Assembly (NCBI RefSeq): GCF_048403405.1
Contig: NZ_CP183129.1
Reading direction: 5' to 3' (one strand)
DNA length: 64,000 nucleotides
Source of the DNA: Escherichia coli
Lineage (GTDB): Bacteria > Pseudomonadota > Gammaproteobacteria > Enterobacterales > Enterobacteriaceae
Shown in pieces: positions 25,401 through 28,400 of the stretch. A program made the position numbers. Each line of letters starts with the position of its first letter. Positions within the stretch are counted from its first letter, which is position 1.

Positions 25401-28400
25401 AATTATGGTTTAGTGAAGCGATCTTAATGAGTAAATATGAACAGCGGCACTGGTCAGGATGAACGGCTTACGGCAGAATATGAACAGATATGAACAGAAT
25501 GAGTAAAACCCTCTGATGCCACATCACATTGTTATTGTTGAAGATGAGCCGGTTACCCAGGCTCGATTACACTCCTACTTCACTCAGGAGGGGTATACCG
25601 TTTCCGTTACGGCGAGCGGTGCCGGGCTGCGGGAAATTATGCAGAATCAGCCGGTAGATTTAATTCTGCTGGATATCAATTTGCCCGATGAAAATGGCCT
25701 GATGTTAACCCGCGCCCTGCGAGAACGCTCAACGGTGGGGATTATTCTGGTTACCGGACGCAGCGATCGGATTGACCGTATTGTTGGACTGGAAATGGGC
25801 GCAGACGATTACGTCACCAAACCGCTGGAACTGCGCGAACTGGTGGTACGAGTGAAAAATCTGCTCTGGCGAATCGACCTCGCGCGGCAGGCGCAACCGC
25901 ACACTCAGGACAACTGCTATCGCTTTGCGGGTTATTGCCTGAATGTGTCGCGCCATACGCTGGAGCGGGATGGCGAGCCAATTAAACTGACCCGCGCAGA
26001 GTATGAAATGTTGGTGGCGTTTGTGACGAATCCGGGCGAAATTCTTAGCCGTGAACGTCTGCTGCGTATGCTTTCTGCGCGTCGGGTGGAAAACCCTGAC
26101 CTGCGCACCGTCGATGTGTTAATTCGTCGTTTACGCCATAAACTCAGCGCGGATTTACTGGTGACGCAACATGGCGAAGGTTATTTCTTAGCCGCTGATG
26201 TGTGCTGATAAAAATAGACCGGACGAAATCCCCCTGGCGACAGCGAGCGGCGGATATGTTCACGGTCGGCATTTTTCGGCGTCAGAACTAAAATCGGTGG
26301 GCTGACATTATCAGACACCGATTGCCCCTGTAATTGCCTGATGGCCTGCTCAACCGCCAGTTCCCCCTGCCAGACCATCTGATCGCTGGCAGCCATAATC
26401 ACTCTTCCCCGCTTCAGCCCGCGATACACCTGATGTGAAAGATAAAACGACACCACGGTAAGCGGCGTTTTCAGATTGCGCCCTTCCCCCATTGCCGCCT
26501 CTGCCGCAATGGCCGTTCCGGCAACGACGTCGATTTCTGGATGGCGTTCCAGCATCTCCTGCAACAGGTTACGCTGGATTTCAATATCGTTATCACCGAG
26601 CGCAATATCAACAATACGCACCGGGCTTCCGGCAATGGCTGCGCGAAAACCCTCTACCATCTCCTTACTGCCCCCGGCGTTATCGGGTCCGGGCATCAAC
26701 AGCACGTTCAGTGGTTTACCGTGCGCCCATTGCACCAGATATCGCCCTGGTTGATAGCCCATCTGAAACCAGGGCACACCAACGCGGCTTTTCACGTGGG
26801 GAGCATCAATAGCATTCACCAGTTCGATCACCGGCAGATTTGCTACCTGCTTTTGCAGGTCGGGAAATGACGTCGTGCTACTTCCGAGCAAGATGGCCTC
26901 TGCGCCCCACTGTTTACACTGGTCGATTTGTGCTTGCTGGGTAGCCAACTGGCTGTAGCCGCCTGCCTCCAGCACTTTTAAATCCACACCGTAGCGGCGA
27001 GCAGCCTCCTGCATACCATAGTTCAACGATAACCAGTATGAATCTTTCAGGCTGGGATAAAGCGCGCACAGTTTCCATGCACGTTTGGCTTTAAGCGGCG
27101 TAGAGGGTTGCACCGAGAAATGCTGCGCATCATGCCAGCGCAACAGGTTATCAGCCGAAAAACCAGGCAACATGAAAAGGGAAAGAAGTAAAAATAGCAG
27201 TACGCGCATGATAGCCTCATCAATAATAAGGCTTTATGCTAGATGCATTCCGCTTTGCGACTCAACCTTTTTCATCTTAAGTGCACCGACCGTGAATTTA
27301 ACCCTGACCCGAAGACTCTGGATGGGCTTTGCCCTGATGGCGCTGTTAACCCTGACCAGTACCCTGGTGGGATGGTACAACCTGCGCTTTATCAGCCAGG
27401 TGGAAAAAGACAACACTCAGGCATTGATTCCTACCATGAATATGGCGCGCCAGTTGAGCGAAGCCAGCGCCTGGGAACTTTTCGCCGCGCAGAACCTGAC
27501 CAGTGCCGATAACGAAAAGATGTGGCAGGCGCAGGGGCGAATGCTCACCGCACAAAGCCTGAAGATTAATGCGTTGCTGCAAGCGTTACGGGAACAAGGT
27601 TTTGATACCACCGCTATTGAACAACAGGAACAGGAGATCTCCCGTTCGTTACGTCAGCAAGGGGAACTGGTGGGACAGCGTTTGCAACTTCGCCAGCAAC
27701 AACAGCAACTCAGTCAGCAGATAGTCGCCGCCGCCGATGAAATCGCACGCCTGGCGCAAGGTCAGGCGAATAATGCGGCAACCTCCGCCGGAGCGACCCA
27801 GGCCGGGATTTACGATTTGATTGAACAACATCAGCGTCAGGCCGCAGAAAGTGCACTCGATCGGCTGATTGATATCGATCTTGAGTATGTTAACCAGATG
27901 AATGAACTGCGCCTTAGCGCCCTGCGGGTGCAGCAAATGGTGATGAATCTGGGGCTGGAACAGATCCAGAAAAATGCGCCAACGCTGGAAAAGCAGCTCA
28001 ATAATGCGCTGAAAATTCTGCAACGTCGGCAAATACGCATTGAAGATCCGGGAGTTCGTGCTCAGGTCGCAACAACGTTAACTACCGTTAGCCAATATAA
28101 CGATTTGCTGGCGCTGTATCAGCAGGACAGTGAAATCAGCAATCGCCTGCAAACTCTCGCCCAAAATAACATCGCCCAGTTCGCGCAGTTTAGTAGCGAA
28201 GTCAGTCAGCTGGTCGACACCATTGAGCTGCGTAATCAGCACGGACTGGCGCATCTGGAAAAAGCCAGTGCACGCGGGCAATACAGCCTGTTATTGCTGG
28301 GGATGGTTTCACTTTGCGCACTGATTCTGATCCTCTGGCGCGTGGTTTATCGCTCAGTCACGCGTCCACTTGCCGAACAAACGCAGGCGCTGCAACGGCT

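What the first reader, a model, noticed from the sequence alone, without database searches (positions are those of the whole stretch)
26181..26208. Convergent 28-nt coding overlap of torR and torT
The 3' end of torR (plus) and the 3' end of torT (minus) share 28 nt with no room for a terminator between them, so each transcript must read into the other gene. This is conserved K-12 architecture as far as I recall, but it implies obligate antisense read-through within the TMAO sensing module.
Basis: seen in the sequence. Interest (0 to 1): 0.15.

Follow-up and report, generated by a model that had tools for sequence, protein, structure and literature searches.

The report
Known torR–torT tail-to-tail gene overlap
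The ends of two E. coli genes of the TMAO-sensing system, torR and torT, really do share 28 bases on opposite strands, but this is a long-annotated, evolutionarily old and already catalogued arrangement of an ordinary kind, not a new regulatory device.

Summary
torR (+, 25516-26208) and torT (-, 27209-26181) share 26181-26208, which is 28 nt. Both reading frames are backed by homology to their last residues, so no other stop or start assignment removes the overlap. RefSeq annotates the same 28 nt in K-12 MG1655 and in the strain identical to the window, and about 5,415 of 5,426 complete E. coli genomes carry the junction.

The overlap is old. Exactly 28 nt is kept in Escherichia, Citrobacter, Salmonella, Pragia, Budvicia and Parendozoicomonas (TorT only 43% identical). 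Related taxa have 21 nt, 8 nt or short gaps.

The cause is simple. The torT stop codon lies antisense to TorR's conserved Gly-Tyr codons, and TorR always carries seven more residues. The overlapping TorT tail (Q335-K342) lies outside the folded domain and mirrors TorR's codons.

Published data already show transcription overlap. torT-torR is listed among 165 convergent "excludons" (NAR 2025). A Rho-dependent termination region lies antisense to torT about 430 nt past the torR stop (eLife 2021).

A hairpin that looked like an embedded terminator failed the tests. No regulatory effect has been shown. The finding is ordinary and already known.

The parts
25516..26208 (+). torR coding sequence (OmpR-family response regulator TorR, 230 aa; stop TGA at 26206-26208)
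   Evidence: ORF list. Pfam Response_reg 5-113 and Trans_reg_C 153-225. RefSeq annotation. PDB 1ZGZ matches the receiver domain.
26181..27209 (-). torT coding sequence (periplasmic TMAO-binding protein TorT, 342 aa; stop TAA at 26183-26181)
   Evidence: ORF list. Pfam Peripla_BP_1 44-337. RefSeq annotation. PDB 3O1H_B (Vibrio TorT) aligns to residues 46-332.
26181..26208 (.). 28-nt convergent coding overlap. It encodes TorR Y223-C230 plus stop on the + strand and TorT Q335-K342 plus stop on the - strand. Third codon positions of the two genes coincide (phase 123:213).
   Evidence: Codon layout. Identical in K-12. Exactly 28 nt in 13 other species-level genomes from three families.
26179..26184 (+). 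TorR Gly222-Tyr223 codons (GGT TAT). Their antisense supplies the torT stop codon, which requires a pyrimidine at the Gly third position.
   Evidence: All 13 taxa with the 28-nt overlap have GGT or GGC followed by TAY. Losing this stop would extend torT by 83 codons and give a 277-nt overlap.
26206..26217 (+). torR stop TGA followed by in-frame TAA (26209) and TAG (26215), lying on torT codons for V331-Y332-F333-Y334-Q335
26313..26468 (+). C-rich, G-poor stretch of the torR-strand RNA, antisense to torT. It is a candidate Rho-loading (rut) region. This is an inference.
   Evidence: Composition in 78-nt windows: C 0.37-0.41, G 0.18-0.22, C/G up to 2.3. It lies upstream of the mapped Rho termination region.
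26600..26680 (+). Approximate position of the published Rho-dependent termination region antisense to torT (peak at K-12 1056830 on the minus strand, window ~26640)
   Evidence: PMC7815308, Supplementary file 2: reads -BCM 39 upstream and 14 downstream, +BCM 52 and 81, Rho score 4.34, p = 2.2e-05. Coordinates were mapped through. Resolution is coarse (800-nt windows).
26218..26267 (.). Imperfect hairpin flanked by A5 (26210-26214) and T5 (26272-26276), inside the torT 3' codons. It was considered as an embedded bidirectional terminator and is not supported.
   Evidence: MFE -19 to -24 kcal/mol. No consensus structure in 14 taxa. z = -1.17 against synonymous resampling. No mapped 3' end.

Best explanation
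This is a passively maintained, evolutionarily locked tail-to-tail overlap of two genes in one signalling pathway. The torT reading frame runs past the end of its folded domain into the 3' end of torR. It stops at the first in-frame stop, which is formed on the antisense strand by TorR's conserved Gly-Tyr codons (GGY TAY). TorR always carries seven residues after that Tyr, so the overlap is fixed at 1 + 8x3 + 3 = 28 nt. Here 1 is the last base of the Gly codon, 8 counts the Tyr codon plus the seven codons after it, and 3 is the torR stop.

The eight overlap-encoded TorT residues are a passenger tail whose sequence is dictated by TorR's codons. For example, Val gives Thr, Asp or Glu gives Ser, Ala gives Ala, and Tyr-Phe or Tyr-Leu gives Lys. 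Purifying selection on TorR's C-terminus helps freeze the arrangement. So do the cost of losing the torT stop (+83 codons) and the double frameshift that any indel would cause.

The transcriptional consequence is that no terminator lies between the genes. The torR-strand transcript runs on into antisense torT, becomes untranslated, and is stopped by Rho a few hundred nucleotides downstream. The torT transcript must cover at least the last 28 nt of torR in antisense. Both genes are weakly expressed, so the mutual effect is probably small.

Shown: the overlap, its conservation, the codon logic, overlapping transcription, and a Rho region on the torR strand. Inferred: the passenger status of the TorT tail, the rut location, and the small size of any interference.
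For: The annotation is identical in K-12 and TUM14771. The junction is present in 5,415 of 5,426 complete E. coli genomes at 95% identity or more.

The overlap is exactly 28 nt in Escherichia, Citrobacter (four species), 'Providencia vermicola', Salmonella arizonae and diarizonae, Pragia, Budvicia (two species) and Parendozoicomonas. Serratia H1w has 21 nt and Cognaticolwellia has 8 nt. Colwellia and Amphritea have gaps of 18-52 nt, and Aeromonas has a gap of 494 nt.

The TorR C-terminus HGEGY plus 7 aa is conserved whether or not the genes overlap. TorT tails are unrelated to one another in non-overlapping taxa, but follow the pattern xTSxxxK* in all 28-nt taxa. TorT homology ends at about residue 333, and the Vibrio crystal chain aligns only up to residue 332. 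The next torT in-frame stop is 83 codons further on.

For transcription, torT-torR is in the MG1655 convergent excludon list (PMC12288877). A Rho termination region lies antisense to torT (PMC7815308), with a C-rich, G-poor stretch upstream of it. In gap-bearing relatives, the intergenic spacer contains a clean hairpin where a terminator would be expected. [quoted passage not shown]
Against: Exact conservation of 28 nt down to 43% TorT identity could also reflect selection on the overlap itself, which sequence data alone cannot exclude. The Rho-terminated antisense RNA could start at an unmapped promoter inside torT rather than come from torR read-through. Read counts are low (39 and 14) and resolution is 800 nt. 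No 3'-end data exist for the torT-strand transcript. The dispensability of the TorT tail has not been tested experimentally. Horizontal transfer, rather than long vertical retention, could explain the identical layout in Parendozoicomonas and in 'Providencia'.
Confidence: 0.8

Rival explanations
1. The overlap is a selected excludon. It would exist to make torR and torT transcription antagonise each other, through RNA polymerase collision or RNase III cleavage of the mRNA duplex. This would tune TorT levels or add noise to them, and hence affect the stochastic TMAO response.
For: torT-torR is in the published list of convergent excludons. There is no intergenic terminator, and antisense transcription across torT is detected and Rho-limited. 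The 28-nt layout is conserved in three families. Excludon pairs as a class show higher synteny (PMC12288877).
Against: TorT and TorR act positively in the same pathway, so mutual exclusion has no obvious logic. Many TorT-bearing genera (Vibrio, Photobacterium) have no adjacent torR, and others have spacers with a hairpin, so the overlap is not required for the system. Conservation is fully explained by TorR codon constraints. Expression is very low, so collisions and duplexes should be rare. An excludon call is nearly automatic when coding sequences overlap. No experiment addresses this pair.
Confidence: 0.12
2. An intrinsic, possibly bidirectional, terminator is embedded in the torT 3' codons. 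It would be the A5 tract, the hairpin at 26218-26267 and the U5 tract. torR transcripts would then end about 70 nt past the stop, and read-through would be limited.
For: The layout resembles a bidirectional terminator. The hairpin folds at -19 kcal/mol and the element with its flanks at about -24 kcal/mol. The 161-nt region folds better than shuffles (z = -2.8). On a 14-taxon alignment, 65% of cells are paired against 31-44% in the slid controls.
Against: RNAalifold finds no consensus pair. The structure tested was derived from the E. coli row, which inflates its score. Synonymous-codon resampling gives z = -1.17, with 13% of resamples folding as well, and the window ranks 8th of 155 in antisense torT. 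The U-run is simply the Lys/Glu-Asn codons of a conserved PKN/PEN motif. The consensus terminator scan did not flag it. No 3' end is reported there in two Term-seq resources. The Rho signal lies well beyond it. On the torT strand it would sit before the torT stop codon.
Confidence: 0.06
3. The overlap is an annotation artefact, and one of the two proteins really ends earlier.
For: The last eight TorT residues lie outside the conserved domain.
Against: Stops are set by the frame, not by annotation choice. No earlier in-frame stop exists in either gene. Both frames are supported by homology up to or into the overlap. The same ends are found in 13 other species.
Confidence: 0.01

Closest known systems
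Convergent (tail-to-tail) overlapping gene pairs of prokaryotes, thought to arise by stop-codon loss and extension
   Same: Two convergent coding sequences share a short 3' stretch of less than 60 nt. Each stop is embedded in the other's codons. The class is common: a published count gives 75 convergent overlapping pairs in E. coli (PMC4161906), and 3 of 10 local convergent pairs overlap.
   Different: At 28 nt it is longer than the very common 4-nt class. It is in phase 123:213, the minority phase for convergent overlaps longer than 4 bp (22% in E. coli; PMC2174442). It is unusually deeply conserved at an exact length.
Convergent excludons (overlapping 3' transcription of neighbouring genes; Sesto et al. 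2013 concept; ExcludonFinder 2025)
   Same: Convergent genes have no terminator between them and their transcripts overlap. The pair is explicitly listed for MG1655.
   Different: Reciprocal repression, RNase III processing or opposing expression has not been shown for torT-torR. The two products cooperate rather than serve opposing functions.
Rho-dependent termination of untranslated or antisense transcription in E. coli
   Same: Once past the torR stop, the RNA is untranslated and C-rich, and a BCM-sensitive termination region is mapped about 430 nt downstream.
   Different: The origin of the terminated RNA (torR read-through or an internal antisense promoter) is not resolved. No precise 3' end is known.
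Bidirectional intrinsic terminators between convergent genes (SEnd-seq and RNAP-collision model; bioRxiv 10.1101/2022.10.23.513370)
   Same: Relatives with a 51-52 nt spacer (Colwellia, Amphritea) have a hairpin in the spacer. E. coli has a look-alike hairpin inside torT.
   Different: In E. coli there is no spacer, and the look-alike hairpin fails the conservation and significance tests.

Membership tests
Convergent overlapping protein-coding gene pair | Two genuine protein-coding genes on opposite strands, 3' end to 3' end | tested here: met
   Pfam domains in both. RefSeq annotation. Homologues across Gammaproteobacteria.
Convergent overlapping protein-coding gene pair | Coding sequences, including stops, share nucleotides | tested here: met
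   26181-26208, 28 nt. The same in K-12.
Convergent overlapping protein-coding gene pair | The overlap is not a misannotation; both C-termini are conserved in orthologues | tested here: met
   The same stops and the same 28 nt occur in 13 other species.
Excludon (convergent type) | Transcripts of the two neighbouring genes overlap in antisense | tested here: met
   This follows necessarily from the coding overlap. The pair is listed in the ExcludonFinder MG1655 excludome (PMC12288877). A Rho region lies antisense to torT (PMC7815308). The evidence comes from the literature, not from data generated here.
Excludon (convergent type) | Expression of one gene represses the other (mutually exclusive or opposing expression) | not testable with these tools
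   No expression data for this pair were available. It needs RNA or protein measurements with the genes insulated from each other.
Excludon (convergent type) | RNase III processing of the duplex, or demonstrated transcriptional interference | not testable with these tools
   No pair-specific data were found in the papers searched.
Intrinsic (Rho-independent) terminator, bidirectional | Compact G+C-rich stem-loop immediately followed by a U-tract, with an A-tract upstream for the other strand | tested here: inconclusive
   A5 and U5 tracts are present. However, the stem is long and interrupted, with a 4-nt gap before the U-run. The consensus scan did not flag it.
Intrinsic (Rho-independent) terminator, bidirectional | Structure conserved or better than expected given the coding constraint | tested here: not met
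   RNAalifold finds 0 pairs. z = -1.17 against synonymous resampling.
Intrinsic (Rho-independent) terminator, bidirectional | Mapped RNA 3' end at the U-tract | tested here: not met
   There is no torR or torT entry among the curated Term-seq 3' ends of PMC7815308 or in the TERMITe supplements. Low expression limits the weight of this negative result.
Rho-dependent terminator | Read-through increases when Rho is inhibited (bicyclomycin) | tested here: met
   The downstream/upstream read ratio rises 4.3-fold with BCM at K-12 1056830(-), p = 2.2e-05 (PMC7815308, Supplementary file 2). This is literature data.
Rho-dependent terminator | Untranslated, C-rich and G-poor RNA upstream (rut) | tested here: met
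   Window 26313-26468 on the + strand: C 0.37-0.41, G 0.18-0.22. It lies downstream of the torR stop and the tandem stops.

The most novel reading that the evidence does not exclude
The exact 28-nt overlap is kept because it is functional. torR-strand transcription running into antisense torT, limited by Rho, would hold TorT (and with it TorS/TorT signalling) low and noisy. This would contribute to the known stochastic, bet-hedging induction of torCAD. The overlap would then be a conserved cis-coupling device inside a two-component module.
Probability: 0.08. Interest if true: 0.45.

Novelty: already known. Interest (0 to 1): 0.1.

Why it matters
It matters little for discovery. The overlap is in every E. 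coli annotation, and the pair is already in a published list of overlapping convergent transcripts.

The useful by-products are modest:
- A clear example of how a convergent overlap becomes frozen at an exact length. A stop codon is read off the antisense of a conserved Gly-Tyr motif, and a passenger tail mirrors the partner's codons.
- A practical warning for anyone editing the 3' end of torR or torT. C-terminal tags, deletions or scars in one gene alter the other, and alter its 3' untranslated transcript.

If the overlap did tune TorT levels, it would bear on the stochastic TMAO response. Nothing here supports that.

Tried and rejected
1. Embedded bidirectional intrinsic terminator (A5, hairpin 26218-26267, U5). 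It looked promising on single-sequence folding. It was rejected because there is no consensus structure and it does not beat synonymous resampling. The U-run is explained by conserved PKN codons, and no mapped 3' end was found. The pair count is biased because the structure came from the E. coli row.

2. Alternative stop or start assignments. These are impossible for a 3' overlap, and the frames are validated.

3. Known RNA families at the junction. There are no Rfam matches at E <= 1 in 25300-27400.

4. Promoter and terminator consensus scan. Hits were at chance level and none lies at the junction.

5. Literature look-ups that gave nothing:
- The first full-text search was swamped by 'tortoise' and 'torrent' word-starts.
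- The original torT paper (PubMed 8576063) and Ju et al. 2019 (SEnd-seq) are not held.
- The eLife 2019 HK022 paper and the PNAS 2022 TorR paper do not discuss the overlap.
- The supplements of PMC12207403 and PMC10349824 contain no torR or torT.
- The ExcludonFinder supplements are not held.

6. The first homologue search returned only near-identical E. coli TorT variants. The representative search was needed to reach other genera.
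Full report
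**1. Observation**

The window carries torR on the + strand (25516-26208; 230 aa; stop TGA at 26206-26208). It carries torT on the - strand (27209-26181; 342 aa; stop TAA at 26183-26181). The two coding sequences share 26181-26208, which is 28 nt (TTATTTCTTAGCCGCTGATGTGTGCTGA).

On the torR strand this stretch encodes the last base of the G222 codon, Y223-F-L-A-A-D-V-C230 and the stop. On the torT strand it encodes the last base of the Y334 codon, Q335-H-T-S-A-A-K-K342 and the stop.

The frames are not in doubt. Pfam Response_reg and Trans_reg_C cover TorR up to residue 225, and Peripla_BP_1 covers TorT up to residue 337. A 3' overlap depends only on frame and stop codons, so no re-annotation of starts can remove it, and neither gene has an earlier in-frame stop.

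**2. Identity and annotation**

The 1.9-kb region is 100% identical to E. coli strain TUM14771 and about 97.6% identical to most other E. coli. 5,412 of 5,426 complete genomes carry the locus, and 5,415 carry the 111-nt junction at 95% identity or more.

RefSeq annotates the same overlap in TUM14771. In K-12 MG1655, torT is 1056261-1057289 (+) and torR is 1057262-1057954 (-), again 28 nt. The junction sequence is identical to K-12. The conversion is window x = K-12 coordinate 1083470 - x, with the window + strand corresponding to the K-12 minus strand.

**3. Is it unusual?**

As a class, it is not. In the 50 kb around the locus, 3 of 10 convergent gene pairs overlap: yccX/tusE by 4 nt, appA/cspH by 13 nt and torT/torR by 28 nt. 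Huvet and Stumpf counted 75 convergent overlapping pairs in an E. coli genome (PMC4161906).

The codon phase here pairs third positions with third positions. This is 123:213 in the notation of Lillo and Krakauer. It is the phase of the common 4-nt overlaps, but a minority (22% in E. coli) among convergent overlaps longer than 4 bp (PMC2174442).

**4. Comparative evidence**

A profile of diverse TorT proteins was used to scan one genome per species. For each locus I located the torT stop and the neighbouring torR stop.

| Junction | Taxa |
|---|---|
| Overlap of exactly 28 nt | Escherichia coli and E. albertii; four Citrobacter species; a contig labelled Providencia vermicola; Salmonella enterica subsp. 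arizonae and diarizonae; Pragia fontium; two Budvicia species; Parendozoicomonas callyspongiae (TorT 43%, TorR 55% identical to the window) |
| Overlap of 21 nt, in a different phase | Serratia sp. H1w |
| Overlap of 8 nt | Cognaticolwellia |
| Gaps of 18-52 nt | Colwellia and Amphritea |
| Gap of 494 nt | Aeromonas |
| No torR next to torT | Vibrio and Photobacterium |

In the taxa with a 51-52 nt spacer, the spacer folds into a clean hairpin where a shared terminator would be expected.

**5. Why exactly 28 nt**

TorR ends HGEGY plus seven residues plus stop in every taxon except Aeromonas, whether or not the genes overlap. In the phase used here, a TorR Tyr codon (TAY) preceded by a codon ending in a pyrimidine reads TAA or TAG on the other strand. 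All 13 taxa with the 28-nt overlap have GGT or GGC before TAY. This stop is the only one in the torT frame for 83 codons.

The overlap therefore equals 1 (the last base of the Gly codon) + 8 codons (Tyr plus the seven residues after it) + the 3-nt torR stop, which is 28 nt.

The same codon arithmetic dictates the TorT tail:
- TorR Val (GTN) forces Thr.
- TorR Asp or Glu (GAN) forces Ser.
- TorR Ala forces Ala.
- TorR Tyr-Phe or Tyr-Leu forces Lys.

This explains the conserved xTSxxxK* pattern of TorT tails in the 28-nt taxa. TorT tails in non-overlapping taxa are unrelated to it.

The TorT tail also lies outside the folded protein. Homology of distant TorT proteins ends at residues 332-335. 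The crystallised Vibrio parahaemolyticus TorT chain (3O1H_B) aligns only up to E. coli residue 332.

The simplest reading is that TorR is the constrained partner and the TorT tail is a passenger. The arrangement is frozen because indels would frameshift both proteins and loss of the torT stop would add 83 codons. Loss of the torR TGA would cost only one codon, because TAA follows immediately.

**6. Transcription**

There is no intergenic space, so both mRNAs necessarily contain the 28-nt complementary stretch. Published data go further.

- ExcludonFinder (NAR 2025, PMC12288877) lists torT-torR among 165 convergent excludons, found in at least 50% of 58 MG1655 RNA-seq data sets. That call is almost automatic when coding sequences overlap.
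- Adams et al. (eLife 2021, PMC7815308, Supplementary file 2) report a Rho termination region classified as antisense to torT. It lies at 1056830 on the minus strand. Reads in 800-nt windows were 39 upstream and 14 downstream without bicyclomycin, and 52 and 81 with it (Rho score 4.34, p = 2.2e-05). This maps to window ~26640 on the torR strand, 432 nt past the torR stop.
- Upstream of that point, the torR-strand RNA has a C-rich, G-poor stretch at 26313-26468 (C 0.37-0.41, G 0.18-0.22). This is the composition expected of a Rho loading site.

These data fit torR transcripts reading into antisense torT and being stopped by Rho. They do not exclude an internal antisense promoter, and read counts are low. 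No 3' end for torR or torT appears among the curated Term-seq ends of that study or in the TERMITe supplements. Nothing is known about where torT transcripts end inside torR. The first 170 nt there show no unusual structure (z = -0.18).

**7. A lead that failed**

Immediately after the torR stop lie an A5 tract, a long interrupted hairpin (26218-26267, -19 kcal/mol) and a T5 tract. This is the layout of a bidirectional intrinsic terminator, embedded in torT codons. Several tests count against it.

- RNAalifold finds no conserved pair in 14 taxa.
- The apparent excess of paired cells (65% against 31-44% in slid controls) is expected when the structure is taken from one row of the alignment.
- Resampling synonymous torT codons gives z = -1.17, and the window ranks 8th of 155 within antisense torT.
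- The T-run is the antisense of the Lys/Glu-Asn codons of a conserved PKN/PEN motif.
- On the torT strand, the element would terminate transcription before the stop codon.

I do not consider it a terminator. Only 3'-end mapping under inducing conditions would settle it.

**8. Function**

TorT, TorS and TorR act together to induce torCAD, so an arrangement that makes torT and torR mutually exclusive has no evident logic. [quoted passage not shown] Many TorT-bearing bacteria do without the overlap.

I therefore put the passive, constraint-locked overlap at about 0.8. A selected excludon-type coupling is at about 0.1, and the embedded terminator at about 0.06.

**9. Verdict**

The feature is real, conserved and already known. 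It is annotated in K-12 and in essentially all E. coli genomes, and it is listed in a 2025 excludon catalogue. Interest is low.

The only added value is the explanation of why the length is fixed at 28 nt across three families. There is also a practical caution: edits to either gene's 3' end also alter the other gene.

Noticed in passing
window 32295-32507 (cspH, +) and 32495-33805 (appA, -); overlap 32495-32507: In the strain identical to the window, appA and cspH are convergent and overlap by 13 nt. From memory, K-12 has the etk-etp-gfc cluster and an IS1 between appA and cspH. If so, this lineage lacks about 9 kb here, and the deletion created a new convergent overlap with a slightly longer appA.
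   Followed up: partly
window 44080-44083: yccX and tusE are convergent with the classic 4-nt overlap. This pair sits next to torT-torR in the published excludon list.
   Followed up: no
window 25400-27300: The region is 100% identical to strain TUM14771. Only 7 of 5,418 E. coli genomes are 99% identical or more, and most are about 97.6%. The window therefore comes from an uncommon E. coli lineage.
   Followed up: no
window 27085-27292: The longest mechanical ORF for torS starts at a TTG at 27085 and would overlap the torT 5' end divergently. RefSeq starts torS at 27292, and an ATG start was experimentally confirmed according to eLife 2019. The apparent divergent overlap is therefore an ORF-calling artefact.
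   Followed up: partly
L010:3501-5197: A contig labelled Providencia vermicola DSM 17385 carries a tor regulatory locus that is Citrobacter- or Escherichia-like (TorR 89%, TorT 71% identical to the window) with the same 28-nt overlap. For a member of the Morganellaceae, this suggests horizontal transfer or a mislabelled or contaminated assembly.
   Followed up: no
L063:3501-5164: Parendozoicomonas callyspongiae, from outside the Enterobacterales, has the torS-like/torT/torR arrangement with exactly the 28-nt overlap at only 43% TorT identity. This is either very old retention or transfer of the whole regulatory module.
   Followed up: partly
L066:4412-4464 and L081:4412-4464: In Colwellia, the 51-nt spacer between torT and torR folds into a clean 9-16 bp hairpin, a likely shared terminator. 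This may represent the state before, or the alternative to, the overlap.
   Followed up: partly
window 18234-19494: A YccE-family gene is annotated as a frameshifted pseudogene in the identical strain.
   Followed up: no
E. coli genome collection: Six matches to the torR-torT region lie on records classed as plasmids, and a few genomes have two copies.
   Followed up: no
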